From NCBI GenBank assembly GCA_019322485.1, contig JAHWIK010000001.1, forward strand, positions 1-54,289: a stretch of 54,289 nt of DNA, read 5' to 3'. Below the pieces are notes generated by a model. That model searched no databases, was not told where the DNA came from, and was given only the letters and a program-made list of their open reading frames with translations. Made by a program: the position numbers and the translations under genes. The stretch is from Candidatus Woesearchaeota archaeon (GTDB taxonomy: Archaea; Nanobdellota; Nanobdellia; Woesearchaeales; JAHWIC01). Below, piece by piece: positions 12,001 through 43,529 of this stretch; position 1 is the first letter of the stretch, and the number at the start of each line of letters is the position of its first letter.

Positions 12001-15000
12001 CTTATAGGCAGTCCAACCTCACCAGTATATGCATTTGAGTAATTGGCATAGAACATTACATCATCCCCTAATCTTTTGCCTTGTGAACCGCCTTGCGGGT
12101 CATTATCATCCCAGACTGAAAGAGACGAGTCCTTGATGGTATTGGTTTCGCTTGAGTTTAATGCAGTTCCTTCTGTATAGCCGTCAGTTGGGGTGATAGA
12201 ACACTTCCATTCTTCACTATATACTGTTTCGTTGTGAGAGATTGAGCTTAAGCCAGACTGGTAGAGTTTTCTGACTTGGTTTGCGTTTAAGCTTCTATTG
12301 AAGATAAGGACTTCGTCGATTGTTCCGTCGAAATACCTGTTATTAAAATCCAACCCGAACCTAACATCTGCATTAGCACCTATAGTTCCTGATATAGTGC
12401 CTGTTGAGCCAGCAGCATCTAATTCTCCATTAATCCAGGTTTTTGGTGCTTCTCCACTCTTCCAGGTTCCAACGACATGGTACCACGCCCCCGTGCCTAG
12501 TGAGTTACCTGATGAATAGCCATATTTATATGTAGAACCGTTGCCAATATAGAACTCGAGCCTATTATTCGCACCATTACCAGAAAAAAAGACCGCATCA
12601 TTAGTACCACTTCTGGACTCTATTATTGGGTCGGCTATATCAAAATCATCAATATTTATCCATGCTGAAACAGTTGTTTCATCCATGCCATAAAATAAGG
12701 CTTCGCTTATTGTGATATAATCATCACCACCATCAAACTCATAAGCACCCCAGCCATCATAGCCGCCAGTTCTGTTAAAGGTTGCATTTATTACCCTTCC
12801 ACTCTTGTTGTGGGGAGAATAATCCCTTGTCCACCCTATGCCTGCTGAGTTGTTCCATTCAAACGGCATATTCAAGATAGTTAATGATTCACCATCTTTG
12901 TACCAGTTGATTATTGGCTTGACTGAATCACCATCTGCGTCAGCTGAATTATTTAGTGAGCAGCCAATATCACTATCTAGGTAAGCATAATCTCCTTTGC
13001 TTGATTCGTATAGTTTTTCAATTTCTGTTGCTGATAAGGAACGGTTCCAGATGGTTACTTCGTCTATTGTGCCGTTGAAATGATTTGGTATCCCTGCGGA
13101 TGGATAATTTCCGATAGTTACATACCCCGTAGTTGTACCTCCAAATGTAGAGGCATCTTCGAAAAACTCACCATTAACATATAAGCTTGCTTTGGAAGTT
13201 GTGGTATCAAAAACAGCTACAAGGTGAGTCCAATCTGTTGTTATGCTATATGAGGAGTCCCAATAGTTTGCTCCAGTCATCAAAGCAGCTTTCCCATTCT
13301 CTAAAAGTAAGGTCCAATCATAACCTCCGTTATCTGGGCATATAATCCATTGTTTGACAGATGGGCTCTCTGTTTTAACCCACGCACTATAAGTTAATGC
13401 AGATGGTGTAGTGAAAGTAAGGCTAGTTTGTACCCTCTCAGTGCTACTATCAAACCAATAACCCTTACCAACCCTGCCTTCATCAGTATGTGTTGCACCA
13501 GTAACAGTTCCATTATTCCTTCCGGTTTCATCATAAGTCCAGGTAGAATTGCCCCATTCGAAGCGCCATTCGCCAACTAAGCCTGAATCAAGCCGGTTAT
13601 GCGCGCCAATGTAAGGTATTGAATGTGTTGGTGCATTAGTTTCATCATTGTATGCATAACCAACATCACTGCCAAACCTAAACTCTAAAGTAACATGCCC
13701 TTCTTTTAGTTTCAGGCTTGATTCATAGCCAGTTTCATTGCAGGAATAATCTTCAACAAACACAGAACTGTTTCCAGAGCTTCTGTTAATCCAGGTATAA
13801 TTAACTAGAGCATCACCGCACCTAAGCTCAATGAAATTGTAGTTGTAATCTGTTCCATTGTAACCAGCAATATCTGTCCAGGTTGCACCATTAATTGGTG
13901 TTATTGTCAGATTAGCTGTTCCAGTTGTGTTAAACATAACAGTCCAGTTGTCGCCAACCTCAGGATAGCTGATGATATTGAGTATATCTATCTCAGTACC
14001 AAATCCTGAGAAGTGCTCAGCAGTAAAGGTTAATCTGCCATTAACAGGGTCATAGCTTATGTCATGGCATATATCACATTCCTTGCCATTAGCAATAATC
14101 TCCTCCCTTGAGCTGTAGAATCCATCTGCGTAATAGATTTTAGGAATTCCTGAGTACCATACATTCTCTAGGGTTATTGTAACAGAATGATTAAAGCTTT
14201 TATCTAAAGCAGATGAATTTGCAGAAACAAATCCAAAGCCAAGCTTTACATTTGTGTTGTAATCTTCTCTGCTTGTATTCACACCATACTCTTCACCAAA
14301 CTCAATCTTTCCATCACTAGTTGCAAGAGTTAGATTTGTGACATTCTCAAAGTCGCTTATTATCCTAAAGTCAGTGCTTCCTTCAGCTCTGTCAAATTCA
14401 GCAGCAAAAGGAACACCTCTTTCATATGTTTCGCTGTAAGCTACTATGCCAGAGTCCAAACTGAATGCATAATCCTCGCCAGGTGTTATATTCAAGGCTT
14501 CTTCCCAACCACCAGAGCATTCCTGCGAATTAGCATCCCAGCCATCGCATCTGTAAAGTTTATCACCTTTTGCAGTTACATTTACAGCTGCATCTGTAAA
14601 GTTTACCTTGGATGAATCTATTGCATATAGCTCAAACAGCTCTCCTGTTTCATTCAGGTCATCTATGTTAATCAGGTCTGTTGTGTTGGAATAAAGCTCT
14701 ACATCCTTGATGACTATTCCCCTAACAGGATGGTTCTTGAGCCTGATGTTTATATCATAGATTCCTTCTTTTATCTTTATGTAATCCTGCTCAGGCTTTA
14801 AATAAGAGGTATCAAGTATGCTGTCAATAAGCTCTACCACAGCATCCTCAAGCTTTTTGAGCTTTGATGTTTTTACATGCGCAGAGAAGATAATCTCTTT
14901 AGGAATGCCAAACTCGTAAACCTCCAAAGCTTCTTTTTTGCCAATAAGAAGCCAGAATGAGGACTTATCCCAATCAAGAATAGTTAGTCTAACTCGTTCA

Positions 15001-16844: not shown

Positions 16845-17292
16845 GCTTGCCTCTTTTAAACTTGGCCCTATGGTAGACTGTCCAGATGTTACGTTCATCT
16901 CGGTTGAGTAGAATGCCTATCTCATGGAAGCTGAGCTTTTTATGGTCCTTAAGCCATTCAACAATGGCTTCAAAACCACTCAAGCTTCTGTCCTTTAGGA
17001 CAGAGATAGGCACACTCAACCGGGGTTTTGGAGCAGAAATTCTCTTAGTAATCTCGCGCTTCTTCCTTACTCTTGAATAAATGGTCCAGATATTGCGCTC
17101 ATCGCGATTAAGAATTAAACCAATCTGGCGGTAGTTGAGTCCTTTTTCTTCTTTCAAATACTCTACAACAGCTTCAAGAATTGCAAGATTAGTATCAAAG
17201 AAAACAGTATTTGGCAGAAGGAGAGCAGTATGATTAGAAGCTTTTTTAATAACATCACTCTTTTTAAGTTCTCCAAAACCCCTTTTAATCAA
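16837..17292 (-). CDS. Small DNA-binding protein with two tandem HTH-like repeats (sigma-70 region 4-like). Its 3' end overlaps the giant gene start by 8 nt.
   Basis: 151 aa. Internal duplication: LEAVVEYLKEEKGLNYRQIGLILNRDERNIWTIYSRVRKK and FEAIVEWLKDHKKLSFHEIGILLNRDERNIWTVYHRAKFK. Stop at 16839-16837, while the giant gene ATG sits at 16844-16842. Confidence 0.55.
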   Translation of the reverse strand: MIKRGFGELKKSDVIKKASNHTALLLPNTVFFDTNLAILEAVVEYLKEEKGLNYRQIGLILNRDERNIWTIYSRVRKKREITKRISAPKPRLSVPISVLKDRSLSGFEAIVEWLKDHKKLSFHEIGILLNRDERNIWTVYHRAKFKRGKHG

Positions 17293-21167: not shown

Positions 21168-22460
21168 TTGAACTTTAATCTTAAAATGGTAGTTAATATT
21201 GGATTGATTGGAATTGGGACTATAGGCTCTGGGGTAGTTAAGATACTGAAGAAGAATTCTAAAACAATAGAGAAACGCTCTGGGGTAAAGCTGAACCTGA
21301 AGAAGGTTTGCGACTTAAACCATAAAGCAGCTAAAAAGCTGGGAATTCCAAGTTCAAAGCTGACAAAAAAGGTAGATGATGTTGTTAATGATCCTGAGAT
21401 TGATATTGTGATAGAACTGATAGGCGGCTATGAGCCAGCAAGGACATTTATCCTAAAAGCAATGAAAAAGGGGAAGCATGTTGTAACTGCCAATAAGGCT
21501 GTTATTGCAAAGCACGGCCCTGAGCTGTTCAAGGCAGCTGAAAAGAACAAGGTTAATTTCTGTTTTGAGGCAGCTGTTGGAGGCTGCATCCCAATACTTA
21601 AGGCTTTGAAGGAAAGCTATGTTGCTGATAATATTAACTCTATCTATGGTATTGTGAATGGAACAACCAACTATATCTTAACAAGAATGAATGAAGGGAT
21701 GAGCTATGAGGAGGCTTTGAAAAAAGCACAGCAATTAGGCTTTGCAGAAGCTAATCCAGCATTTGATGTGGAAGGAAAGGATGCTGCGCAGAAGCTTGTT
21801 ATCCTGTCTTCGTTGTCATTCAATTCAAGGATTAATGATGATATATTTACAGATGGCATAACTAAGGTAAGCAAGAATGACCTTAAGTATGCCCAGGAGC
21901 TTGGCTATACTATCAAGCTTTTGGCTATAGCAAAAAAGGATGATGGAAAGATTGAGTTAAGGGTACATCCAACAATGATTCCAATAAAGCATGAGCTTGC
22001 TTCTGTTAGCAACGAATTAAACGCAGTATATATTGCAGGAGAGAGTATAGGCAAGGCAATGTTGTACGGAAAGGGGGCTGGCCAGCTGCCAACAGCTACT
22101 GTTGTATTGGGGGATGCTGTTGATATTGGAAAGAGACTTAGCAAGATAGTTGTTAACCCTATGAGCTATTTCAGCAATTCCAAGCTGAAGAAGATGGATG
22201 AGATAAGGTCAAGATATTACTTAAGATATTCTGCTGCTGACAAGCCAGGTGTATTAGCAAAGATATCTGGGATTCTTGGGAAGAATAAGATAAGCATTGC
22301 AGGGGTATGGCAGATGGAAGTGGATAAGAAGGTTGTTCCTGTAATAATGACAACTCACGAAGCTTTAGAAAGAGACCTGCAAAAAGCCATCAAAGAGATA
22401 AACAGGCTTGATGTTATTAAGGATAAGACAGTTGTTATAAGAATAGAGAATATAAGTTAA
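21168..22460 (+). CDS. hom: Homoserine dehydrogenase with a C-terminal ACT domain.
   Basis: NAD-binding NIGLIGIGTIGSGV, a central AAVGGCIPIL-type catalytic region, and a C-terminal ACT-like segment. The true start may be the internal Met at about 21186. Confidence 0.85.
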   Translation: MNFNLKMVVNIGLIGIGTIGSGVVKILKKNSKTIEKRSGVKLNLKKVCDLNHKAAKKLGIPSSKLTKKVDDVVNDPEIDIVIELIGGYEPARTFILKAMKKGKHVVTANKAVIAKHGPELFKAAEKNKVNFCFEAAVGGCIPILKALKESYVADNINSIYGIVNGTTNYILTRMNEGMSYEEALKKAQQLGFAEANPAFDVEGKDAAQKLVILSSLSFNSRINDDIFTDGITKVSKNDLKYAQELGYTIKLLAIAKKDDGKIELRVHPTMIPIKHELASVSNELNAVYIAGESIGKAMLYGKGAGQLPTATVVLGDAVDIGKRLSKIVVNPMSYFSNSKLKKMDEIRSRYYLRYSAADKPGVLAKISGILGKNKISIAGVWQMEVDKKVVPVIMTTHEALERDLQKAIKEINRLDVIKDKTVVIRIENIS

Positions 22461-22480
22461 AGTTTGGGGGGGCAATTAGA

Positions 22481-22978
22481 ATGTTTGTAAACAGATATGA
22501 AAATATCTTTGATATAAAGTTTAACTGGAGAACAGCAAGCCTGCTTTGCTTTTTGGCTGTGTTCCCGAATGTGCTTGGAGCCTTGCACACAACTGTGTGG
22601 GGCGTTAGGATACACTTCTTCCAATACCTTATATTCTTAGCTGCTATAATATACGGCCCTGTTGGAGGGGCAGTATCAGGAGCTTTTGGCTCTGTTTACA
22701 CAGCAATGGCTCTGCATAACCCTTACATTATTGTGGGGAATGTCATTCTTGGAGCAACAGTTGGCTTACTCATTAAGAGATTTAATTTTCACGTGATTTC
22801 TGCTGTTTTGACAGCTTATCTTATACAAATGCCTTGGTTATGGCTAACAGATATCTATTTAGCAGGGATGCCTATGAAGGTTGTGAACAGCATTGTTGTT
22901 GCTTTGCTGGTTAGCGATTTGCTGTGGGGCTCTGTTGCTTTGTTTACTTGGAAGAAGATTAGGGCTATTGTGTCTTAA
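22481..22978 (+). CDS. Membrane protein, possibly an ECF-transporter S-component-like substrate-binding subunit.
   Basis: 165 aa, five or six TM helices, Gly-rich helices. Family assignment is tentative. Confidence 0.35.
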   Translation: MFVNRYENIFDIKFNWRTASLLCFLAVFPNVLGALHTTVWGVRIHFFQYLIFLAAIIYGPVGGAVSGAFGSVYTAMALHNPYIIVGNVILGATVGLLIKRFNFHVISAVLTAYLIQMPWLWLTDIYLAGMPMKVVNSIVVALLVSDLLWGSVALFTWKKIRAIVS

Positions 22979-23125
22979 TCAATAAAAAACTTCATTAGAA
23001 ACAAAAAATAAATATGATTTTTGCCTTAAGTCTACTATAAAGCAAAAATCGTCTACAGTGTTTCTAAAGAACCAAACTAAGATGAAAATTCCTTTACAGA
23101 GGTTGTGAAAGGAATTTTCAGATTT
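22977..23125 (+). repeat. Copy B of the conserved three-hairpin intergenic element.
   Basis: aaataaatatGATTTTTGCC-(17-nt loop)-GCAAAAATCgtc ... GATGAAAATTCCTTTacagaggttgtgAAAGGAATTTTCagattt. It ends 18 nt before the ATG at 23144. Confidence 0.65.
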
Positions 23126-23143
23126 AATTGATATTTTTCAAAA

Positions 23144-23527
23144 ATGAAAAAGCTCACTAAGAAACAAATTACGGATAAGGTAAAAAAAATAGATTTCCCA
23201 AACTTTGACTTAATCATAGCTATAAACCGGGGCGGCTTAAATCCAGCTAAAATCCTGGCTAAACACCTCAAACTGAAAATCAAAACAATCCATATCAATT
23301 ACAGGGATGAAACTCATGCTCCAAAATACAAGAATCCAAAACTGATTAAAACAATAAAAATCAAAAACAAAAAAATATTATTGGTTGATGATGTTTCCAG
23401 AACAGGAAAGACATTAAGAACTGCAAAAAAACTATTAAAAGAAAATAAGGTAAAAACATTTGTTATTAACGGAAAAGCAGATTATTCCTTGTACAACTGC
23501 AAAGAGTGCTTTAAGTTTCCTTGGTAA
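23144..23527 (+). CDS. Small phosphoribosyltransferase-domain protein.
   Basis: PRPP-binding motif KILLVDDVSRTGKTL. Only 127 aa. Confidence 0.55.
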   Translation: MKKLTKKQITDKVKKIDFPNFDLIIAINRGGLNPAKILAKHLKLKIKTIHINYRDETHAPKYKNPKLIKTIKIKNKKILLVDDVSRTGKTLRTAKKLLKENKVKTFVINGKADYSLYNCKECFKFPW

Positions 23528-24850
23528 CTACTTAAAATACTCACTATGCAAAGCCTGTACTGCTTTGTCTGCTTCATCATCATCTACTATAAAGCTGACA
23601 TTGATTTCTGAAGCGCCCTGCGATATCATCTCAACATTAACCTTTGCTTTGCCTAGGGTTGTGAATATCTTTCCAGCTATTCCAGGAATATGATACATGC
23701 CCTCTCCAACAACACAGACAATTGCTTTGCCTTTCTCTACCTTGACATCAGCAATCTCCTTTAGCTGCTCTGCAATCTGGTCCATGCTTTCTTCCTTATC
23801 AACAGTTAGAGATATGCTTGCTTCTGAGGTTGCTATCATGTCAATGCTTTTTGCGTAGTCTTCAAAGATGTCAAATACTCTGGCCAAAAATCCATGCGCG
23901 CCAATCATCCTTGTGGAGACTATACTAACTAGCAGGACGCTCTTCTTGCAGGCTATTGCCTTTATGACTTCTTTGGATTTCTCAGATTTGCGCACAATCA
24001 CAGTTCCTTTATGTGTAGGCTCGTATGTATTGAGAACCCTAACAGGAATATCCTTCTTCATTGCAGGTATGATTGTTTTTGGATGCAGAACCTTGGCACC
24101 AAAGTAAGCAAGCTCTGAGGCTTCTGCAAAGCTAATCTGAGGTATTGTTTTTGCTTCCTTTATAACTCTGGGGTCAGATGTCATGACACCATTAACATCA
24201 GTCCATATCTGTATCTCTTCGGAACCTACAGCTGCGCCTATTATTGCTGCTGTATAATCAGAGCCTCCCCTGCCTAGGGTAGCTACAGTACCTTCTGGTG
24301 TTTTCCCGATAAATCCAGTTACTATCGGCACTAGATCAAGCTTTTTGACATGGTCATCTATCTTTTTGTAGGAATCATTTAAAGGCTCTGCCTTTCCAAA
24401 GTTAGCGTTTGTTATCATGCCAATATCCCATGCATCAAAGGCCTGAGCTTTAACACCGATGCTATTCAGGTGTGCTGCAACGAGCTTAGAAGACATACGC
24501 TCTCCAAAGGACTGAACAAGGTCCATGGCCTGGGTAGAGGCTTCGCTTGCCTCTTCAATATCCTCTATAACCTGCCTGAATTCATCAAGATTTTTCTTAA
24601 CAATGTCTTTATCAAGATTTAGGTCTGCTATAATCTGGTCATGCTTATCACCGATTTCCTTGAGCAGGTTTGAGGTGTTTTCTCCGTCAACTGCAGCATT
24701 AGCTGTTTCAATTAATTTGTCAGTTATACCTTTGACTGCAGAGACAACTACAACAGGCTTTTTATCCAGCCTTGACTTTACAATATTAGCTACATCTTTG
24801 ATTTTTTCTGCATTTGCTACAGAGCTTCCGCCGAACTTCATTACAATCAT
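23528..24850 (-). CDS. lysC: Aspartate kinase (aspartokinase) with tandem ACT domains.
   Basis: MIVMKFGGSSVANAEKI N-terminus, amino-acid-kinase fold motifs and a C-terminal ACT pair. 440 aa. Confidence 0.9.
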   Translation of the reverse strand: MIVMKFGGSSVANAEKIKDVANIVKSRLDKKPVVVVSAVKGITDKLIETANAAVDGENTSNLLKEIGDKHDQIIADLNLDKDIVKKNLDEFRQVIEDIEEASEASTQAMDLVQSFGERMSSKLVAAHLNSIGVKAQAFDAWDIGMITNANFGKAEPLNDSYKKIDDHVKKLDLVPIVTGFIGKTPEGTVATLGRGGSDYTAAIIGAAVGSEEIQIWTDVNGVMTSDPRVIKEAKTIPQISFAEASELAYFGAKVLHPKTIIPAMKKDIPVRVLNTYEPTHKGTVIVRKSEKSKEVIKAIACKKSVLLVSIVSTRMIGAHGFLARVFDIFEDYAKSIDMIATSEASISLTVDKEESMDQIAEQLKEIADVKVEKGKAIVCVVGEGMYHIPGIAGKIFTTLGKAKVNVEMISQGASEINVSFIVDDDEADKAVQALHSEYFK

Positions 24851-24918
24851 TTATTATCACCTTTCCCTCGAGATTAAATCCTCATTTAAAAACATTGTGT
24901 TACTATTAGAACAAAAAA

Positions 24919-26256
24919 CTAAGGTAACTCACTAGCTAGAACAATGACCTGATTTGCGCCTTTCTTAGCAGTAAAAACCAGCTTTCCATCAACTTCAGTT
25001 ATAGCAGAGCCGATGCCTGTGTATTCTTTCCCTATCTCCTGGCCGTCATAAACTATATATCTACTGAGTAGGCCTTCACTAAAAACAATGACCATCTTAT
25101 TATTGACCTCATGTAAAGAAGAGATTCTTCTCTGACCTTCACCAAGCTGCCCTCCACCGAACTCTTTCCCAATCTCCTGTCCATCATAAACTATCAAACG
25201 TCCTTTTTCTTTATTCATTACCATAAAAGCAACCTTATCATCAATTTCAATTATATAGTTGTCAAATAAATGAAGACCTTGATTATCATACTCCTTGCCT
25301 AACTCTCGGCCTTCATAAACTATGAACCATCTTGTATCAAAGTCTCCCTCTAATTTGTTGGTTGCTACATAAGCAATCTTGCCATTTACATCTTGTATAT
25401 TGCTTGCATGCGCATATTCCTTGCCCAATTCCCTACCACCATAGACAATAAACGTCTTGTTGTCTTTCTTTGCTGTATAAGCTAATTTGCCGTTTATTCC
25501 AGTTAAGTCAGATACGCTATCATATTCCTTCCCAATCTCCTGTCCATCATAGACAATAAAGTATTCATCACAAATGAACTTGCCTGCACAACCGACTCCT
25601 GCCTTATATGCTGGTTTTTCATTGACATTTACTAGATCAGACACCCTGTCATATCCTGCTTCAATTACCTGTTCGTCAAGAACAACTACTGTATTGCTGC
25701 TTAACTCTTTCTGGGCAATGAATGCAGCCTTTCCGCCAATAGATACTAATGAGAAAGGAAGTATCTTATAATATGACTCTCCCGTATGCCCGTCACTGTA
25801 TACTATGAAATTGTTTTCGTTATCTGTTCTAGCAGCATAAATAAGCTCTCCATTTGCTTCAATTGGATAGAATGCATCCATATATTCTGATCCAACTTCT
25901 TCATACTCCAGGGTCACTTCTTTCTTTTCTTCTTGGAGGGGTATTATTGGTTCTTCAGGCTCTGGCTCTACAGCAGGTTCTTCGCTTAGAACTAATTGAT
26001 TGTTGTTAGTCGGAACTACTCCAATTGTCTTTCCAGAGAATAAAAAATAAGATGCCCCTATGATCATAATCAGAACAACGAGAATTATCACTACAGGTTT
26101 TGCACTTTTTGCTTGTCTTTTGTTGACAAGATTGATAGCTTCATTGACTTCTTTACTATCATATCCTTGCTTTATCAAGTAATCATATAATTGTTTAACA
26201 GTATATCCCTGTGCTTCTTCAGATTTAATATAATCAATCAGTTGTTGGTTGACCAT
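24919..26256 (-). CDS. Single-pass membrane protein. Its N-terminal cytoplasmic module is homologous to that of the giant protein, and its extracellular part carries about seven ~40-aa repeats (FIVYDGQEIGKEYDxVxDLxxVNGKxAY).
   Basis: N-terminus MVNQQLIDYIKSEEAQGYTVKQLYDYLIKQGYDSKEV, then a TM helix, a PEPEEP linker, then the repeats. Confidence 0.6.
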   Translation of the reverse strand: MVNQQLIDYIKSEEAQGYTVKQLYDYLIKQGYDSKEVNEAINLVNKRQAKSAKPVVIILVVLIMIIGASYFLFSGKTIGVVPTNNNQLVLSEEPAVEPEPEEPIIPLQEEKKEVTLEYEEVGSEYMDAFYPIEANGELIYAARTDNENNFIVYSDGHTGESYYKILPFSLVSIGGKAAFIAQKELSSNTVVVLDEQVIEAGYDRVSDLVNVNEKPAYKAGVGCAGKFICDEYFIVYDGQEIGKEYDSVSDLTGINGKLAYTAKKDNKTFIVYGGRELGKEYAHASNIQDVNGKIAYVATNKLEGDFDTRWFIVYEGRELGKEYDNQGLHLFDNYIIEIDDKVAFMVMNKEKGRLIVYDGQEIGKEFGGGQLGEGQRRISSLHEVNNKMVIVFSEGLLSRYIVYDGQEIGKEYTGIGSAITEVDGKLVFTAKKGANQVIVLASELP

Positions 26257-26280
26257 TTTTTATTGCTGCTACAACTTAAC

Positions 26281-27849
26281 TCAAAGCGAATCAAACAATT
26301 TCACAACACGTTCCTTGCCAATAGTCAGGATAAACGGAGCCAGCTTTGGCCCGCGCTCTTTCTCAATCAAAACCAGGTAAGCTGCTTTAAAGAACTGCTT
26401 GTTTTCGATTCCAGTCTGCTTGCAAACCTCGTAGAATTCATTAAACAATTCCTTTTCTTCAAAGTCTTTTTCCTTCAATGCCTTAGCTAGCAGCTTTAAT
26501 GCTTCCTTTTCCTTAGCACCAATCTTGATATTCTTTGGAACTGTCTTCTGCACCCTAAACTTCATATCAGCTGGAGCATACTCGCGAAGCCAGTTTATTG
26601 CGCATTGAGCACGGATATTAAAGCGCTTTTCATCGTTTTTATTTGCCAGCTCTGCCTTGTAGTGCTTTGCTGCTTCTTTCATGTCATTCTCGTATATCTG
26701 CACAACATTTGTCAGGTGCCTGAAAGAAGGCTGGTAAGGCATATTCCTTGGCACTGCAGCAGGACAAGAAAGCTCGTAAATCCTACTTTGCTTGGCTTTT
26801 TCTTTCTCATTAGCTTCATGCTCATTAAAGTATATGCGCTCACACTTGTCAAAGTCTTCATAGTTTTTTATGACATCCAAATCAAATGATATTGAAAATT
26901 CGGCATTTGGACGGGTTCCAGCAAATAACCAACGAACTAGCTCTGGCTCATAAATCTCGAGTACATCTTTTGGAGAAAAGGCATTTCCTGTTGAGCCTGA
27001 CATCTTTCCGCCAACACCTTTTACACCAATAAAATCATACATCTGGTAGATAGGTTCTTTTTCATTAAACACAGCATTAACAATTTCAACTCCTGTTGTG
27101 CGAGAGCTTCCAGTAGTAGAATGGTCTTTTCCGCCAGGCTCAAAGTCAACCTTTTCGTGTGCCCATCTCATTGGCCAGTCTACACGCCAAGGCAGTTTAA
27201 CAATCCCTTTCTTGCTGAAATCAACCTCTGCTTTATTCCCACATTTGCAGACATATTCAATCTTGTAGTTTCCATCGTAAAAAACAACCTGAGTATCATC
27301 ACGCTTGCATTTCTCACAATAAACATGTAATGGATACCAATTCTCTGACAAATGCTCTTTTCTGTACTTGTTGAGAATCTCCATAACCTTTTTGCGTTCA
27401 TTCATTGCTTTCTTTATTCCATCCTTATATTCGCACTTCTTGTATTTCTCAGACTGTCTTATGAATTCAACATCAAATCCTAGGCCGGCAATGCTGTCCT
27501 CAAGCTCTTTCTCGAAATGCTCTGCATAGCTTTTATGGCACCCAAAAGGGTCAGGAATATCAGAATAAGGCATTCCGATATATTTCTTGAACTCAGCAGG
27601 AACACCAGCAGGCACTTTACGCATTCTATCAAAATCATCCCAGGAATAGATAAACCTAACCTGTTTGCCTTTGTCCTTCAATGCCCTTACAACTAAATCA
27701 GTTGTTATAATCTCACGAAAATTGCCTATATGAATTGTTCCAGAAGGACTAATGCCAGATGCACAGACATATTTGCTTTTGTCTCCTCTTTGGTGTATAA
27801 CTCTTTCTGCAATTGAGTCTGCCCAGTGCTTTACTTTATTATCTGCCAT
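26281..27849 (-). CDS. lysS: Lysyl-tRNA synthetase, class I (archaeal type).
   Basis: HIGH-type motif PSGTIHIGNFRE and KMSKS-like GKMSGSTGN. 522 aa. Confidence 0.9.
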   Translation of the reverse strand: MADNKVKHWADSIAERVIHQRGDKSKYVCASGISPSGTIHIGNFREIITTDLVVRALKDKGKQVRFIYSWDDFDRMRKVPAGVPAEFKKYIGMPYSDIPDPFGCHKSYAEHFEKELEDSIAGLGFDVEFIRQSEKYKKCEYKDGIKKAMNERKKVMEILNKYRKEHLSENWYPLHVYCEKCKRDDTQVVFYDGNYKIEYVCKCGNKAEVDFSKKGIVKLPWRVDWPMRWAHEKVDFEPGGKDHSTTGSSRTTGVEIVNAVFNEKEPIYQMYDFIGVKGVGGKMSGSTGNAFSPKDVLEIYEPELVRWLFAGTRPNAEFSISFDLDVIKNYEDFDKCERIYFNEHEANEKEKAKQSRIYELSCPAAVPRNMPYQPSFRHLTNVVQIYENDMKEAAKHYKAELANKNDEKRFNIRAQCAINWLREYAPADMKFRVQKTVPKNIKIGAKEKEALKLLAKALKEKDFEEKELFNEFYEVCKQTGIENKQFFKAAYLVLIEKERGPKLAPFILTIGKERVVKLFDSL

Positions 27850-27885
27850 AGGACAATAAATAAGAAGTCTGTTTAAATATTTTAC

Positions 27886-29061
27886 TCAAAACTTAAGATT
27901 CTTAATCCTTTCAGCAGCTTTCCTGCAGTCTTCCAGGGTTGGAACTAATGCAAACCTTACATAGCATTCTCCTGGGTTTACACCATTGGCTTTTGTTGAT
28001 ATCCATGCGCCTGGGGTTGTGACTACAGCAACATCTTTGTCCAGTAATTTTTTTGCAAAGTCAACACAGCTGGTTCCATCAGGGGCTTTCTGCCAGATGT
28101 ACAAGGTAGCTCTTGGTGTGCAGTCTTTCAAGCCTGCAGCCATTAGTGCTTCTATCATTATATCGCGTTTTTTCTTGTACTCAGCCCTTGCAGACTCTAC
28201 ATGAGACTCATCCTTTAAAGCTGCAGCAGCTGCATCCTGTATAAATGTAGCAGTCCCGCTATCAATATTTGTCTTTACTTTCTTGAAAACATTAATTATG
28301 TTCTCGTCACCAGCTAGCCAGCCAACCCTATAGCATGTCATACTGCTTCTTTTTGAAAGGCTTTGGACTGCAACAACACCTTCTTTGGTCAGCTCTAGAA
28401 TTGATAATGGCTTTTCATCAAAGTAGATTTCTGTATAGCATTCATCTGAAGCAATGACTATATCATTATCATGGCCAAAATCAATTACTTCTTTTAGGAA
28501 TCCCTTTGTTGCTAGGGCTGATGTTGGGTTATTAGGATAGTTAATCCAGAGTACTTTTGATTTCTTTACAATGTCATTCGGGATACTACCCAAGTCAGGA
28601 AGGAAATTGTTCTCTTCTGTGAGATTGAGGAAATAGGGCTTTCCTTCTGCAAACAAGGTGCCTCTCTCATATGGAGGATATCCTGGATTTGGCATTAAGA
28701 CTATATCACCCGGATTAACAAACCCTTCATGGAAGTTAAATACAGATTCTTTTGCACCAATACTGGAGGAAACCTCAGTATCAGGATTAAGCTTTACTCC
28801 AAATCTTTTCTTTGTCCAGTTTGCAATAGTTTCTCTATACTCCTGAGTACCGATATAACTAGGATAACCAGAGCTTTTGCGCTCATCAAGTGCCTTCTTG
28901 CATGCTGCTCTAACTAACTCAGGTGTAGGGCTTTTTGGGTCACCAACACCAAAGTCTATTGGACTTATACCTAGCTTTTTCAGCTTGGCTACTTCATTAT
29001 CTACATCAGCAAATGCGTAGCTTCCGATTGAACTTATCCTGTTAGATGCTTCTATTTTCAT
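27886..29061 (-). CDS. dapL: Class I/II PLP aminotransferase, probably LL-diaminopimelate aminotransferase given its operon context.
   Basis: Lys-containing SLSKRSSMTCYRVGW motif. It sits between lysA and lysS and overlaps the lysA stop (ATGA-type coupling). Confidence 0.6.
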   Translation of the reverse strand: MKIEASNRISSIGSYAFADVDNEVAKLKKLGISPIDFGVGDPKSPTPELVRAACKKALDERKSSGYPSYIGTQEYRETIANWTKKRFGVKLNPDTEVSSSIGAKESVFNFHEGFVNPGDIVLMPNPGYPPYERGTLFAEGKPYFLNLTEENNFLPDLGSIPNDIVKKSKVLWINYPNNPTSALATKGFLKEVIDFGHDNDIVIASDECYTEIYFDEKPLSILELTKEGVVAVQSLSKRSSMTCYRVGWLAGDENIINVFKKVKTNIDSGTATFIQDAAAAALKDESHVESARAEYKKKRDIMIEALMAAGLKDCTPRATLYIWQKAPDGTSCVDFAKKLLDKDVAVVTTPGAWISTKANGVNPGECYVRFALVPTLEDCRKAAERIKNLKF

Positions 29062-30341
29062 TTCAACCTCTTAGGTACAATTACATTCTTATAGATATCA
29101 TAAATAGTTTCCCTTTCCCTTATTACTTCAGCTTTTCCATCATTAACCAAAACCTCAGCTGCTCTTGGACGTGTGTTGTAGTGTGAAGACATTGAAAATC
29201 CATATGCACCTGCATTTAAGACAGCAAGCAGGTCGCCTTCTTCAATAGCTGGCATAAGCCTGTCTTTTGCAAGCTGGTCTGTGTTCTCGCAAACAGGCCC
29301 TACAATATTCACCTTTTCAGTTGGCTTTTCATTTAGTTTATTTGCAACAACAATCTGATGATATGCATCATACAGCATTGGCCTTAACAGGGTATTCATT
29401 CCTGCATCTACTCCAATAAAATGCTTATATGCTTCTTTGATTGAATGGACTCTTGTTAAAAGCACTGATGAATCGCAGACAATAAATCTTCCTGGCTCCA
29501 TCATCAGGGTTGGATTGCCTAAGTCAAGCTCTTTTACCTTTTTTCCAAAGACCTCTGCCACTTTTTTTGCTGCTGCTTCTACATCAAGGTCATGCTCACC
29601 AGGCTCATAACTGACGCCCAGGCCGCCGCCTATATCAATGATTTCAAACTCTATCCCAAGCTCTTTTCTTATGTTTCCTGCAATATCCAGGAGCTTTGAA
29701 GAGGCCTCCTCAAAGTAGTTTGGATCAGTAACACAGCTTCCAGTCATCATATGCATTCCAAATCTTTTAACGCCAGCTTCTTTTGCAATCCTATAGGCTT
29801 CCAGGGCATTATTTTCTATTATCCCAAATTTAGCATCTTCGCCAGCAAACACAAGACCTTTTATAGAGCCTCCTGAGATGCCTGGGTTTATCCTGAAGCT
29901 TATGAATTCAGGCACACCAAATTTCAATAGTCTTTTTACCTGGGAGATTCCTTCCAGATTAATCTTAACCCCTGCTTTTAGGGCGTATGCCAGTTCTTCA
30001 TTCCTATGATATACCCCTGAGTATAAAATCTCATCAGGCTTAGCACCTGCTTCCAAAGCCAGGTGGATTTCTTCAGGAGCTGCAGCATCAAAGCCGTCTG
30101 CCTCCTGCTTTATGATTTTAAGTATAGCAAGATTATTATTGGCTTTAACAGCATAGTACATCTTAAAGTTAGGATAGTATCTATTGAAAGCAGCCTTTAC
30201 CCTCTTTACATTATCTCTTATTCGCTTTTCAGAATAGACATACAAAGGGGTATCGAATTCCTTGGCTAACTCTAGAGCATTAGCTCCTTCAATGTAGAGT
30301 ATTCCTTTTCTGTTTTCCAAGGGTTCTTTTATTTCGTACAT
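29058..30341 (-). CDS. lysA: Diaminopimelate decarboxylase.
   Basis: Fold-III PLP decarboxylase motifs (YAVKANNN, GGGLG, and C-terminal EPGR/CDS residues) within a dap cluster. 427 aa. Confidence 0.85.
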   Translation of the reverse strand: MYEIKEPLENRKGILYIEGANALELAKEFDTPLYVYSEKRIRDNVKRVKAAFNRYYPNFKMYYAVKANNNLAILKIIKQEADGFDAAAPEEIHLALEAGAKPDEILYSGVYHRNEELAYALKAGVKINLEGISQVKRLLKFGVPEFISFRINPGISGGSIKGLVFAGEDAKFGIIENNALEAYRIAKEAGVKRFGMHMMTGSCVTDPNYFEEASSKLLDIAGNIRKELGIEFEIIDIGGGLGVSYEPGEHDLDVEAAAKKVAEVFGKKVKELDLGNPTLMMEPGRFIVCDSSVLLTRVHSIKEAYKHFIGVDAGMNTLLRPMLYDAYHQIVVANKLNEKPTEKVNIVGPVCENTDQLAKDRLMPAIEEGDLLAVLNAGAYGFSMSSHYNTRPRAAEVLVNDGKAEVIRERETIYDIYKNVIVPKRLK

Positions 30342-30394
30342 TTAAACCGCATTCCTTTATTTACCATTTTATCATAATAGTATATAAAATTAAC

Positions 30395-31273
30395 TTAAAG
30401 AAGCTTCATGTCTTGAAGAATCTTCTTCCATTTCTCTTTATTAGCTGCAGACATCTCGCACATTGGAAGACGATAGACTTCTTCGCACATTCCTTTCCAT
30501 GCGAGGGCTAATTTGATTGGGATTGGATTTGTTTCTATGAACTCACCTTCAAAAAATGCAGCCAGTTCATTGTTAAGTTTTTCAGCTTCATCCATGTTTC
30601 CATTAAGTGCAGCATCAACAAATGCAACCATCTTGTCTGGGATAAAATTTGATGCAACTGAAACAACACCATTACCCCCAGCTTTGATTAAGTCAAGAGT
30701 AATGCCATCATCACCAGATAAAACACTAAATCCATCAGGCCTTTGCGCAATGACATCCTTCATCTGGTCAAGGTTTCCAGAGGCTTCTTTTACAGCATTT
30801 ATATTGCTGCAGTCCTTTACCAATCTCATTAATGTAGGGGTTTCTACATTAATCCCTGTCCTCCCTTTGATATTGTACACAACAATTGGAATACTTACTG
30901 CATCTGCGACAGCCTTAAAGTGCCTGTACAACCCTTCCTGAGTAGGCTTGTTATAGTAAGGGTTAACAACCAAGCAGGCATCTGCACCAGCTTCAGCAGC
31001 GTGTTTTGTCAGCCTTATTGCTTCAGCAGTTGCATTTGAGCCTGTTCCAGCTATAACTGTACATCTTTTGTTGACCCATTCAATGACTTTTCCAATTACC
31101 TCATCATGCTCTTCATGACTTAGGGTTGGGCTCTCACCAGTTGTACCCATTGGCACTATGCCAGCTACCTTATTCTCTATTTGAAACTCTACAAGTTTCT
31201 TTAAAGCATCCCAATCAACAGAGCCATCCCCCTTGAATGGCGTTACAATAGCAGTAAAAACTCCTTTGAACAT
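30395..31273 (-). CDS. dapA: 4-hydroxy-tetrahydrodipicolinate synthase.
   Basis: GTTGE, YNxP and catalytic Lys motifs. 292 aa. Confidence 0.9.
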   Translation of the reverse strand: MFKGVFTAIVTPFKGDGSVDWDALKKLVEFQIENKVAGIVPMGTTGESPTLSHEEHDEVIGKVIEWVNKRCTVIAGTGSNATAEAIRLTKHAAEAGADACLVVNPYYNKPTQEGLYRHFKAVADAVSIPIVVYNIKGRTGINVETPTLMRLVKDCSNINAVKEASGNLDQMKDVIAQRPDGFSVLSGDDGITLDLIKAGGNGVVSVASNFIPDKMVAFVDAALNGNMDEAEKLNNELAAFFEGEFIETNPIPIKLALAWKGMCEEVYRLPMCEMSAANKEKWKKILQDMKLL

Positions 31274-31288
31274 TTTGTTAACCTCCGA

Positions 31289-32053
31289 TTATTTTATAAC
31301 ATCAACCATCATATCGTTTATCTCAAAAAATCCTTTTTTGTCGTTAATCCATTCAGCAGCCATTAATGCTCCTAAAGCAAAGCCATTTCTGCTGCGGGCA
31401 GTATGCTTAAGCTCAATTGTGTCGGCTGTGCTGTCAAAGCCAACAACATGCGTGCCTGGGATATCACCGCCGCGGACACTGGCGAAATGAAGCTCATCTG
31501 GTTCTATTTTACGTGCAAGCTTGTCAAATACCAGTTTATTCTTCCTGTCAATATTATCAACCAAAATCTTGCCGATTGATTTTGCTGTCCCTGACGGGCT
31601 GTCTTTCTTTCTGTTATGGTGCAGTTCGTAGCCGAATATGTCGTAATCTTCAATATTATTGATTATTTTGGCAGCAACCCTGGCAATCCTATAAAATACA
31701 TTGACCCCTATTGAAAAGTTTGATGCATAGACAAAGCCGGTCTCTGATTTTTCGATTACCCTCTTTGCTTCATCGAGCTTATCCAGCCAGCCGGTTGTGG
31801 CCATAACGTGATTCTTTCCAAGCTCTGCGATTCTTTTGGCATTCGCAACAGCAACCTCTGGGAGGGAAAACTCTATGCAGACATCTACATCATTCAATGA
31901 TTCCCCATTAATCTCCTTATGTGTAGCTCCATCTGCTATCGGGTCTATTATTGACTTGATTGTTATTCCTTTCTCTATAGCGAGCTTTTCAACCATATGC
32001 CCCATTTTGCCGTATCCGATTATTGCAATGTTTATCTTGACCACCCCGGTCAC
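31289..32053 (-). CDS. dapB: 4-hydroxy-tetrahydrodipicolinate reductase.
   Basis: N-terminal IAIIGYGKMG Rossmann motif and the characteristic DapB core. 254 aa. Confidence 0.85.
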   Translation of the reverse strand: MTGVVKINIAIIGYGKMGHMVEKLAIEKGITIKSIIDPIADGATHKEINGESLNDVDVCIEFSLPEVAVANAKRIAELGKNHVMATTGWLDKLDEAKRVIEKSETGFVYASNFSIGVNVFYRIARVAAKIINNIEDYDIFGYELHHNRKKDSPSGTAKSIGKILVDNIDRKNKLVFDKLARKIEPDELHFASVRGGDIPGTHVVGFDSTADTIELKHTARSRNGFALGALMAAEWINDKKGFFEINDMMVDVIK

Positions 32054-35190: not shown

Positions 35191-35268
35191 AGTGTATTGT
35201 AATGGATTATACTATATAAATGTTGATGTTGTAGCAAGGGATACGACAAGTGAAATATAAGAAAAAAA

Positions 35269-35390
35269 TGGGCTCAAAGGGACTTTCGTGCCGTATTGCT
35301 GTGCAATTAACGGCGTTCGAACCCTCGACCTATCGCTTTCTTCCTTATGGGTAAGAGGCGATCGCTCTAACCAGGCTGAGCTATGAGCCC
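35269..35390 (-). tRNA. tRNA-Lys(CUU) with two predicted introns: a 14-nt intron at canonical position 37/38 and a ~33-nt intron in the T-loop (59/60). No encoded CCA. Followed by a T7 tract.
   Basis: Reverse complement reads GGGCTCA TA GCTC AGCCTGGTTA GAGC G ATCGC CTCTTA[CCCATAAGGAAGAA]A GCGAT AGGTC GAGGG TTCGAA[CGCCGTTAATTGCACAGCAATACGGCACGAAAG]T CCCTT TGAGCCC A. All four stems pair. U33 is present. The T-loop is TTCGAAT after intron removal. The second intron forms the hairpin GCCGT...ACGGC. Confidence 0.75.
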
Positions 35391-35412: not shown

Positions 35413-35425
35413 CACTTTAAAAAAC
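35413..35425 (-). promoter_or_regulatory. TATA-box-like element (TTTAAA) about 27 nt upstream of the tRNA 5' end.
   Basis: The minus strand reads ttttttaaagtgattattaattcttagaaggtat followed by GGGCTC. Confidence 0.4.
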
Positions 35426-35437
35426 TTTTCAAAAGAA

Positions 35438-35782
35438 TCAAACCATCTTCAGTTTTCCGGTAACTTTGTCAATCTCTTTCTCTTCATCTGGGCCTATCCC
35501 TAAGCAGGTTACTGTTCCTGGCTCTACAACTGTTTTCCCAGCGTCTTCTACAACTGCTGTTACAAGGCCGGCATCATCTGCTTCCTGCTTGTATTTGAAC
35601 AACTCATCTACATCTTTTACCTTTAGAACAATCTTCTTCATCCCAGCATCTTTCCAGTCAGCAATAAGCGCTTTGCTGCTTTTCAATAAAGCACCAACAG
35701 AAGCATGGCTAACCTGGGCTGCAAGCTTTCCTTTTGGAAGCTTTAGGTCCTGCCTGACTAATATAACCTGTTTTAATGCCAT
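35438..35782 (-). CDS. pth2: Peptidyl-tRNA hydrolase, PTH2 (archaeal/eukaryotic type).
   Basis: MALKQVILVRQDLKLPKGKLAAQVSHASVGA, typical PTH2. 114 aa. Confidence 0.85.
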   Translation of the reverse strand: MALKQVILVRQDLKLPKGKLAAQVSHASVGALLKSSKALIADWKDAGMKKIVLKVKDVDELFKYKQEADDAGLVTAVVEDAGKTVVEPGTVTCLGIGPDEEKEIDKVTGKLKMV

Positions 35783-43268: not shown

Positions 43269-43404
43269 ATGGCTACACCTCTTTTTTATTATTCTTTTTT
43301 TATTATATATATTCTACTCTGAAACAACTCATTTATAAATTTTTCTATATTTTAGCTTGTATTACCTAGGGATGGGTAAAAACACAAGCATCAAAAATTA
43401 AAAA

Positions 43405-43500
43405 TTTTTGAGGTTCGAAACCACTTTGCGGTTTCGAAACCTTACGAAAAATATAGTTTTTCTAAGGTTAAAAAATCGCAAAAGCGATTTTCGAAACCTT
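43405..43500. promoter_or_regulatory. Array of three GTTTCGAAAC-type perfect palindromes plus two small hairpins in the divergent intergenic region between the pilin operon and rpl10e. Candidate operator array.
   Basis: gaGGTTCGAAACCac at ~43411, cGGTTTCGAAACCtt at ~43429, gaTTTTCGAAACCtt at ~43488. Hairpins cgaaaaatatagtttttc and aaaatcgcaaaagcgatttt lie between them. Confidence 0.5.
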
Positions 43501-43529
43501 TAAAAACCACTCATAATTCCTGAAAAACT

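What the first reader, a model, noticed from the sequence alone, without database searches (positions are those of the whole stretch)
35269..35390. tRNA-Lys(CUU) with a second, non-canonical intron in the T-loop
Besides a 14-nt intron at 37/38, the only way to close the T-stem (GAGGG/CCCTT) and get a 7-nt TTCGAAT loop is to splice out ~33 nt between positions 59 and 60. The inserted sequence forms its own hairpin, as expected for a bulge-helix-bulge substrate. Multiple and non-canonical tRNA introns are restricted to particular archaeal lineages, so this is both a lineage marker and something standard tRNA finders may miss or mis-call.
Basis: seen in the sequence. Interest (0 to 1): 0.55.

Follow-up and report, generated by a model that had tools for sequence, protein, structure and literature searches.

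The report
Lysine tRNA gene with two introns
A lysine tRNA gene of an uncultured Woesearchaeota (DPANN) archaeon is interrupted twice, next to the anticodon and inside the T-loop; the call is correct and ordinary tRNA finders miss the gene, but this gene architecture is already known in archaea.

Summary
On the minus strand, window 35390..35269 encodes a 122-nt pre-tRNA-Lys(CUU). It has a 14-nt intron at 37/38 (35351-35338) and a 33-nt intron at 59/60 in the T-loop (35315-35283). It lies between an archaeal BRE/TATA-like box and a T7 run.

The T-loop intron folds into a near-canonical bulge-helix-bulge. The 4-bp helix is UUCG/CGAA, the 3-nt bulges are AAC and AGU, and there is an outer hairpin plus one extra unpaired A.

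ARAGORN and Rfam do not detect the unspliced gene. After splicing in silico, ARAGORN calls tRNA-Lys(ctt). The spliced sequence is 71/75 identical to an intronless ortholog that scores 70 bits on Rfam tRNA.

Syntenic orthologs downstream of PTH2 and 14 species-representative genomes carry an intron at the same site. Across these, 18 distinct genes have introns of 15-110 nt, and 16 of the 18 keep all four helix pairs. Close relatives have a third intron, in the D-loop.

The host is a Candidatus Woesearchaeota MAG. Introns at 59/60, multi-intron tRNAs and disrupted tRNAs in DPANN are all published. This is a new member of a known kind, of modest interest. Splicing itself is inferred: no endonuclease gene lies in the window and no RNA data were available.

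The parts
35416..35430 (-). Putative archaeal promoter: purine-rich BRE-like GAAAAG (35430-35425) and TATA-like TTTTTTAAA (35424-35416), at -40 to -26 from tRNA position 1.
   Evidence: Read from the sequence. The same AAAAG/TTTTTAAA box lies upstream of the orthologs in L001, L002, L003, L083 and L084. Function is inferred, not tested.
35352..35390 (-). Exon 1: acceptor 5' strand, D arm, anticodon stem 5' strand, and loop positions 32-37 (CUCUUA, anticodon CUU).
   Evidence: The first 21 nt are identical in 73 DPANN and other archaeal loci.
35338..35351 (-). Intron 1: 14 nt (CCCAUAAGGAAGAA) at 37/38, with a relaxed BHB (bulge-helix-loop type). Placing the boundaries at 36/37 gives the same mature RNA. 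A slipped register would give 38/39 with C38.
   Evidence: Related 13-15-nt introns in L001, L026, L019, L037, L070 and L071 show the canonical register (xGAG + 2 nt + A38).
35316..35337 (-). Exon 2: A38, anticodon stem 3' strand, variable loop AGGUC, T stem 5' strand GAGGG, and T-loop positions 54-59 (UUCGAA).
35283..35315 (-). Intron 2: 33 nt at 59/60 in the T-loop.
- Central helix H: U54-G57 (35321-35318) paired with CGAA (35288-35285).
- 5' bulge: A58 A59 C (35317-35315).
- 3' bulge: A G U60 (35284-35282).
- Outer helix h': GCCGU/ACGGC (35314-35310 with 35294-35290).
- One extra unpaired A (35289).
- Inner hairpin: AUUGC-ACA-GCAAU.
   Evidence: The MFE fold of the whole precursor and of the isolated T arm shows this structure. 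RNAalifold on 6 family members recovers it, with compensatory changes in the T stem. An intron sits at the same site in 18 distinct genes.
35269..35282 (-). Exon 3: U60, T stem 3' strand CCCUU, acceptor 3' strand UGAGCCC, discriminator A. CCA is not encoded.
35262..35268 (-). T7 run immediately after the discriminator, a likely archaeal transcription terminator.
   Evidence: Read from the sequence. T-rich tracts follow the orthologs too. Inferred.

Best explanation
This is a functional, twice-interrupted tRNA-Lys(CUU) gene of a Candidatus Woesearchaeota (DPANN) archaeon.

Proposed pathway:
1. The gene is transcribed from its own BRE/TATA promoter to the T7 run as a precursor of about 122 nt (inferred).
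2. In the precursor, T-loop nucleotides U54-G57 pair with CGAA near the 3' end of the 33-nt insert. This forms the 4-bp central helix of a bulge-helix-bulge motif (shown by folding and comparison).
3. The T stem forms one outer helix and an intron hairpin forms the other.
4. The archaeal splicing endonuclease (EndA) cuts between the 2nd and 3rd nucleotide of each 3-nt bulge, that is after A59 and before U60 (inferred from the established BHB rule).
5. EndA likewise cuts the relaxed BHB at 37/38.
6. An RtcB-type ligase joins the three exons, CCA is added, and class I LysRS, encoded 7.5 kb away, charges the tRNA (inferred).

The predicted cuts restore exactly the UUCGAAU T-loop and CUCUUAA anticodon loop seen in intronless orthologs.
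For: - The cloverleaf plus hBHBh' appears in the unconstrained MFE, z = -4.2.
- The in-silico spliced product is called tRNA-Lys(ctt) by ARAGORN, while the unspliced gene is invisible to ARAGORN and scores 21.8 bits on Rfam against a cut-off of 29.
- The spliced RNA is 71/75 identical to the intronless tRNA-Lys(CUU) of L017, which scores 70.2 bits on RF00005.
- Syntenic orthologs directly downstream of PTH2 in independent assemblies (L001-L005, L083, L084) carry an intron at the same 59/60 site. They share the 3' end (G/A)CGAAA(G/U)|U, vary in the inner hairpin, and show compensatory T-stem changes.
- Among species-representative genomes, 14 loci have a 59/60 intron in this tRNA, with lengths of 15-110 nt. 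Of the 18 distinct intron-bearing genes, 16 keep 4/4 central-helix pairs.
- The host is archaeal (PTH2, TFE-alpha, ribosomal protein S6e and L10e, aIF2-gamma) and is labelled Woesearchaeota.
- Literature: 59/60 is a recurrent non-canonical site, and an ARMAN-2 pre-tRNA-Cys 59/60 intron was cleaved in vitro by its EndA (PMC3239211). DPANN EndAs carrying the L3 loop are associated with more disrupted tRNA genes (PMC5829648).
Against: - No RNA data are available, so splicing is inferred.
- No EndA or RtcB gene lies in the 54-kb window (Pfam). The rest of the genome is not available.
- Intron 1 has an imperfect BHB: a C.A mismatch in the canonical register, and the MFE prefers a slipped register.
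- Intron 2 has one unpaired A opposite the 5' bulge, so it is not a textbook 3-4-3 motif.
- tRNAscan-SE in archaeal mode and SPLITS could not be run.
- The contig is from a metagenome-assembled genome.
Confidence: 0.9

Rival explanations
1. A tRNA-Lys pseudogene inactivated by an insertion in the T-loop. The insert is not removed and the locus is decaying.
For: General tRNA finders reject it. No expression data exist.
Against: - All four stems are intact.
- The insert ends exactly where a BHB cut restores UUCGAAU.
- Orthologs in many independent assemblies keep the site and the helix while the insert interior diverges, with compensatory T-stem changes.
- The promoter box and terminator are conserved.
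Confidence: 0.04
2. A single-intron tRNA whose 3' part is read differently, as in the Rfam sub-threshold alignment ending at 35302, with the downstream sequence unrelated.
For: Rfam RF00005 aligns 35390-35302 at 21.8 bits, E = 0.03.
Against: - That alignment has non-canonical pairs in the acceptor and T stems and falls below the 29-bit cut-off.
- The two-intron reading gives 12/12 pairs in those stems and an ARAGORN tRNA-Lys call.
- Orthologs support the two-intron reading.
Confidence: 0.02
3. The T-loop insert is a relic of recombination or of integration of a mobile element at the T-loop-to-3'-end att region. It is removed, if at all, by something other than EndA.
For: Extra downstream copies of the tRNA 3' segment, starting at about position 59/60, occur in 9 related loci. 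Mobile-element integration has been proposed as a source of tRNA introns (PMC3293823).
Against: - The window gene has no extra 3' copy within 3 kb.
- 33 nt is too short for a self-splicing intron.
- The BHB geometry is conserved.
- An integration origin would not exclude EndA splicing today.
Confidence: 0.03
4. The anticodon is not CUU. For example, ARAGORN's intron placement gives CUA (a 'tRNA-Pyl' or suppressor).
For: ARAGORN -i on the sequence lacking intron 2 reports (cta) i(39,14).
Against: - ARAGORN does not model BHB.
- Neither BHB register yields CUA.
- All 46 related genes, including the intronless ones, read CUCUUA-A.
- The body is 71/75 identical to a bona fide tRNA-Lys(CUU).
Confidence: 0.01

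Closest known systems
[quoted passage not shown] 2011, PMC3239211)
   Same: A DPANN host, the same non-canonical insertion site (59/60) in the T-loop, a BHB-type junction, and coexistence with other introns in the genome's tRNAs.
   Different: - Different isotype and phylum.
- The ARMAN-2 Cys intron is a relaxed hBH, whereas this one is close to a strict hBHBh'.
- ARMAN-2 uses an epsilon2 EndA and cleavage was shown in vitro. Here the enzyme is unknown and nothing has been tested.
Multi-intron tRNA genes of Thermoproteales and other Crenarchaeota and Thaumarchaeota (Marck & Grosjean 2003; Sugahara et al. 2007, 2008; summarised in PMC8450103 and PMC4090602)
   Same: Up to three BHB introns per gene at canonical and non-canonical positions, and rapid gain and loss among relatives. 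Relatives of the window gene have three introns (D-loop, 37/38, 59/60).
   Different: - Different superphylum (TACK versus DPANN).
- Those lineages use (alpha-beta)2 EndA with the Crenarchaea-specific loop.
- The tRNAscan-SE BHB models were trained on those clades, not on DPANN.
[quoted passage not shown] 2018, PMC5829648)
   Same: The same phylum was surveyed. The paper links L3-loop alpha4-type EndAs in DPANN with increased tRNA gene disruption and notes that tRNA sets there are incompletely predicted.
   Different: The text available to me gives no per-gene description, and this particular tRNA-Lys(CUU) intron family is not described there.
Canonical archaeal 37/38 BHB intron
   Same: Intron 1 sits at the canonical site and is removed by the same predicted mechanism.
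   Different: Its central helix carries a mismatch and there is essentially no outer intron helix (bulge-helix-loop type).

Membership tests
Archaeal BHB (EndA-spliced) tRNA intron: intron 2, 59/60 | A 4-bp central helix flanked by two 3-nt bulges on opposite strands, with the cut sites inside the bulges | tested here: met
   UUCG/CGAA helix with bulges AAC and AGU in the MFE of the full precursor and of the T arm. There is one extra unpaired A opposite the 5' bulge. 16 of 18 homologous introns keep 4/4 pairs.
Archaeal BHB (EndA-spliced) tRNA intron: intron 2, 59/60 | Outer helices h (exon side) and h' (intron side) | tested here: met
   h is the T stem GAGGG/CCCUU. h' is GCCGU/ACGGC. RNAalifold recovers both, with compensatory changes in the T stem.
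Archaeal BHB (EndA-spliced) tRNA intron: intron 2, 59/60 | Excision at the BHB-defined sites restores a standard tRNA | tested here: met
   The spliced product has a 7-nt UUCGAAU T-loop, gets an ARAGORN tRNA-Lys(ctt) call, and is 71/75 identical to an intronless ortholog scoring 70.2 bits on RF00005.
Archaeal BHB (EndA-spliced) tRNA intron: intron 1, 37/38 | A 3-4-3 BHB at the exon-intron junctions | tested here: inconclusive
   The canonical register gives a proper 3-nt 3' bulge but a C34.A mismatch in the helix and almost no h'. The MFE uses a slipped 4-bp helix. Homologous short introns in relatives show the canonical register. This is a relaxed (BHL-like) motif.
Archaeal BHB (EndA-spliced) tRNA intron | The host encodes a splicing endonuclease (EndA) and an RtcB-type ligase | not testable with these tools
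   Neither is among the window's ORFs (Pfam), and only this contig of the genome is available.
Archaeal BHB (EndA-spliced) tRNA intron | The spliced mature RNA is observed, or cleavage is shown in vitro | not testable with these tools
   No transcript data.
tRNA-Lys(CUU) | A 7-nt anticodon loop with U33, anticodon CUU and a purine at 37, in a standard cloverleaf; orthology to annotated tRNA-Lys | tested here: met
   Loop CUCUUAA after splicing. ARAGORN calls tRNA-Lys(ctt). The intronless orthologs L017 and L015 are called tRNA-Lys(ctt).
Split or permuted tRNA gene | Exons encoded at separate loci or in permuted order | tested here: not met
   All three exons are contiguous and collinear within 122 nt.

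The most novel reading that the evidence does not exclude
The 59/60 intron of tRNA-Lys(CUU) in Woesearchaeota may belong to a fast-turnover system driven by recombination at the T-loop-to-3'-end segment.

In 9 related loci, one or two extra copies of the 3' exon lie 45-200 nt downstream of the gene. Most are preceded by a hairpin and a YGAA(A/G) string that could again pair with the T-loop as a BHB 3' half. In L003 it is the downstream copy that sits in the ancestral flanking context.

These could be snapshots of T-loop introns being born (the upstream 3' copy decays and becomes intron) or replaced. That would give a concrete, testable mechanism for non-canonical intron gain in DPANN.
Probability: 0.15. 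Interest if true: 0.55.

Novelty: new member of a known kind. Interest (0 to 1): 0.3.

Why it matters
- Annotation: ARAGORN and Rfam find no tRNA in the whole 54-kb contig, and neither detects any of the homologous genes with a T-loop intron. tRNA-Lys(CUU) would therefore be scored as missing in such DPANN genomes. This bears on completeness estimates and on claims of reduced translation capacity.
- Biology: the finding adds Woesearchaeota tRNA-Lys(CUU) to the catalogue of 59/60 and multi-intron tRNAs. It implies an EndA able to act outside the anticodon loop in this lineage.
- Evolution: close relatives carry 0-3 introns in the same gene. That makes a compact natural series for studying intron gain and loss.
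- None of this changes current understanding of archaeal tRNA splicing.

Tried and rejected
- ARAGORN default on the window found 0 genes.
- Rfam at gathering threshold found 0 hits.
- An Rfam E-value scan of the locus gave only a sub-threshold tRNA alignment with the wrong 3' end.
- An Rfam E-value scan of the whole window gave only a weak C/D-box hit inside a giant ORF.
- ARAGORN with introns at a relaxed threshold gave 86 obviously spurious calls and was discarded.
- ARAGORN -i on the half-spliced sequence mis-set the intron (CUA); rejected on comparative grounds.
- Motif search for other hidden tRNAs: the only other GGTTCGAA lies in an intergenic repeat region (43269-43529) with no tRNA features.
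- An exact look-up of the window's PTH2 returned nothing. Its homologs did.
- The metagenome pattern scan for the intron family returned a single chance match in a non-tRNA context.
- PTH2 neighbours at 78% identity (L006-8, L085, L086) no longer have the tRNA next to PTH2.
- No EndA was found in the window by Pfam.
- My parser produced false 'long introns' when it skipped intronless T-loops. This was corrected, and the artefact led to the 3'-exon-duplication observation.
- No supplementary tables were held for Kaneta et al. 2018.

Full report
**What is there.** The feature lies on the minus strand. Read 5'->3' from 35390 to 35269, the 122 nt are:

GGGCUCA UA GCUC AGCCUGGUUA GAGC G AUCGC CUCUUA [CCCAUAAGGAAGAA] A GCGAU AGGUC GAGGG UUCGAA [CGCCGUUAAUUGCACAGCAAUACGGCACGAAAG] U CCCUU UGAGCCC A

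| Segment | Window coordinates | Length |
|---|---|---|
| Exon 1 | 35390-35352 | 39 nt |
| Intron 1 | 35351-35338 | 14 nt |
| Exon 2 | 35337-35316 | 22 nt |
| Intron 2 | 35315-35283 | 33 nt |
| Exon 3 | 35282-35269 | 14 nt |

A run of seven T follows the discriminator (35268-35262). CCA is not encoded. Upstream, GAAAAG-TTTTTTAAA (35430-35416, -40 to -26) looks like an archaeal BRE/TATA box. The same box precedes the orthologs.

**Is it more than chance?**
- Unconstrained RNAfold of the 122 nt gives the acceptor stem, D arm, anticodon stem and T stem plus the intron structures. Energy is -47.1 kcal/mol, z = -4.2, and no shuffle of 200 folds as well.
- Twelve consecutive pairs closing the T and acceptor stems at a fixed place have a chance of about 1e-5.
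- A shuffled intron forms the 4-bp central helix with P = 0.035, and forms it together with an outer helix of at least 4 bp with P = 5e-4.
- ARAGORN and Rfam at gathering threshold find no tRNA in the entire window. Rfam's best local alignment is 21.8 bits against a cut-off of 29, with a wrong 3' end and non-canonical pairs.
- After both inserts are deleted in silico, ARAGORN calls tRNA-Lys(ctt). With the T-loop insert left in, nothing is found.
- The spliced 75-mer is 71/75 identical to the intronless tRNA-Lys(CUU) of a Nanoarchaeota MAG (L017). ARAGORN calls that gene tRNA-Lys(ctt), and it scores 70.2 bits on RF00005.

**The T-loop intron.** The MFE shows the following:
- U54-G57 (35321-35318) pair with CGAA (35288-35285).
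- A58, A59 and the first intron nucleotide (35317-35315) form a 3-nt bulge.
- The last two intron nucleotides and U60 (35284-35282) form the other 3-nt bulge.
- The T stem is the exon-side helix.
- GCCGU/ACGGC is the intron-side helix, capped by a second small hairpin (AUUGC-ACA-GCAAU).
- One A (35289) is unpaired opposite the 5' bulge, so the motif is very close to, but not exactly, the strict 3-4-3 hBHBh'.

The established rule is that EndA cuts between the 2nd and 3rd bulge nucleotide on each strand (general knowledge; the motif is described in PMC5829648 and PMC3239211). Applying it puts the cuts after A59 and before U60. This regenerates UUCGAAU, the T-loop of the intronless orthologs.

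**The anticodon intron.** By homology with short introns in relatives (L001, L019, L026, L037, L070, L071...xGAG + 2 nt + A38), the canonical register applies: C32-G, U33-A, C34.A, U35.G, with a clean 3-nt 3' bulge (AAA) and little intron-side helix. The MFE instead prefers a slipped 4-bp helix, UCUU/AAGA. That register would move the cut to 38/39 and give C38. A38 is invariant in all about 45 related tRNA-Lys(CUU) genes, including the intronless ones, so I keep 37/38. Placing it at 36/37 gives the same mature sequence. I flag the one-nucleotide ambiguity. Either way the anticodon is CUU. ARAGORN's alternative '(cta) i(39,14)' ignores BHB geometry and is contradicted by every ortholog.

**Host and context.** The adjacent PTH2 (35438-35782, minus strand) is 100% identical to an NCBI protein of a 'Candidatus Woesearchaeota archaeon' on a 54,289-bp contig, which is this window. 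NCBI places the phylum under Archaea; Nanobdellati, that is DPANN. Neighbouring genes are archaeal: TFE-alpha, ribosomal protein S6e and L10e, aIF2-gamma. No EndA or RtcB gene is in the window.

**Relatives.** The gene order TFE - M29-like peptidase - PTH2 - tRNA-Lys is conserved in metagenome contigs whose PTH2 is 84-93% identical. All of these carry the 59/60 intron. They share the 3' end (G/A)CGAAA(G/U)|U and differ in the inner hairpin (ATTGC-ACA-GCAAT, ATCC-GCAA-GGAT, AAATTTGC-GTCA-GCAAATTT, and others).

RNAalifold on six of them recovers T stem / 4-bp helix / 3-nt bulge / intron helix. Six of the 17 predicted pairs show double compensatory changes, three of them in the T stem.

L001, L003-5 and L039/L083 have in addition a 30-32-nt intron in the D-loop. 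Its precise removal gives the window's D-loop AGCCUGGUUA. In L019 that D-loop intron is a strict BHB (GCCU/GGGC helix with bulges GGU and AAU). The window gene is therefore the two-intron version of a gene that has three introns in its nearest relatives.

A scan of one genome per species for the first 21 nt of the gene found 73 loci. Parsing them gives the following:

| tRNA-Lys(CUU) genes, distinct sequences | Count |
|---|---|
| With a 59/60 intron (15-110 nt; includes the window and the metagenome contigs) | 18 |
| Of those, with 4/4 central-helix pairs | 16 |
| Without a 59/60 intron | 28 |

None of the genes with a T-loop intron that I scanned is detected by ARAGORN or by Rfam at gathering threshold.

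**Comparison with what is known.**
- Position 59/60 is a recurrent non-canonical intron site. ARMAN-2 pre-tRNA-Cys(GCA) carries a 13-nt 59/60 intron that its epsilon2 EndA cleaves in vitro, and ARMAN-2 tRNA-Pro(GGG) has strict-BHB introns at 53/54 and 59/60 (PMC3239211).
- Up to three introns per tRNA gene are well documented, mainly in Thermoproteales and Thaumarchaeota. tRNAscan-SE 2.0 searches for them by default in archaeal mode, with BHB models trained on Crenarchaeota/Euryarchaeota and on Thaumarchaeota (PMC8450103).
- Kaneta et al. 2018 surveyed a Woesearchaeota genome. [quoted passage not shown]

The finding is therefore a correct, cleanly supported new example of a known architecture. 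It is not a new kind of element.

**Verdict.**
- Observation: confirmed.
- Interpretation: supported.
- Mechanism: BHB recognition and cleavage by EndA, then ligation. This is inferred from structure, comparison and literature, not from RNA data. Confidence 0.9.
- Novelty: new member of a known kind.
- Interest: 0.3. The value lies mainly in annotation and in the intron-turnover series among close relatives.

**Side observation.** I followed this only partly. In 9 of the related loci the last 12 or more nucleotides of the tRNA (T-stem 3' strand and acceptor 3' strand) recur 45-200 nt downstream of the gene, and never upstream. The repeat usually starts near position 59/60. It is often preceded by a hairpin and a GGUGAAAA- or CGAAAG-like string that could again pair with the T-loop. 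In L003-5 the distal copy sits in the flanking context shared with L083, while the proximal copy carries an L002-like trailer. This suggests replacement of a gene segment by recombination. It resembles the mobile-element model of tRNA intron gain proposed for Caldiarchaeum (PMC3293823). The window gene shows no such copy.

Noticed in passing
window 1-16898 (minus strand): One open reading frame of at least 5,632 codons that starts at 16898 and runs off the contig end. Pfam on its N-terminal 1,000 aa gives only a sub-threshold Nup98-type autopeptidase hit. It may be one of the giant proteins typical of DPANN genomes.
   Followed up: partly
window 21168-32053: A lysine-themed neighbourhood 3-14 kb from the tRNA-Lys gene: homoserine dehydrogenase (21168-22460), aspartate kinase (23528-24850), class I lysyl-tRNA synthetase (26281-27849), an aminotransferase (27886-29061), a diaminopimelate-decarboxylase-like enzyme (29058-30341), DapA (30395-31273) and DapB (31289-32053).
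   Followed up: partly
L001 1185-1337; L003 2892-3081; L039; L019; L014; L029; L065: Close relatives of the window gene carry a third intron of 29-32 nt in the D-loop. It is a strict BHB in L019, and its precise removal gives the window's D-loop. The window lineage has either lost it or never gained it.
   Followed up: partly
L003 (about 3070-3190), L015, L024, L027, L044, L050, L051, L069, L076: One or two extra copies of the tRNA 3' terminal segment lie 45-200 nt downstream of the tRNA gene. They start near T-loop position 59/60 and are often preceded by a hairpin plus a YGAA(A/G)-type string that could re-form a BHB half with the T-loop. In L003 the distal copy is in the ancestral flank. 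This may be a trace of intron birth or of gene-segment replacement.
   Followed up: partly
L002, L003, L014, L020, L053, L077, L084 (anticodon introns): A conserved family of anticodon introns of about 39-46 nt in tRNA-Lys(CUU). Each has two hairpins and, in most members, an end similar to ...CUGAAGUA. It replaces the 14-nt intron of the window gene in otherwise near-identical genes. I did not check for box C/D-like function.
   Followed up: no
L006-L008, about 2880-3050: In PTH2 loci at 78% identity, the tRNA-Lys is replaced downstream of PTH2 by a strongly self-complementary element of about 170 nt (GGGAGGATAGAC...GTCTATTCTCCCTA) of unknown nature.
   Followed up: no
window 43269-43529: An intergenic region upstream of the ribosomal protein L10e gene contains repeated TTTCGAAACC palindromes and hairpins. 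It has no tRNA features and only chance-level Rfam hits.
   Followed up: partly
window 16224-16292 (minus strand): A weak Rfam C/D-box snoRNA-like match (snoZ267, 27.4 bits, E = 0.39) inside the giant ORF, probably chance.
   Followed up: no
L014, L021, L030, L032, L035, L037, L038, L052, L069, L071, L076, L077, L079: Many species-representative MAGs titled 'uncultured Methanosarcinales archaeon' carry Woesearchaeota-like tRNA-Lys genes. The organism labels of these records look unreliable.
   Followed up: no
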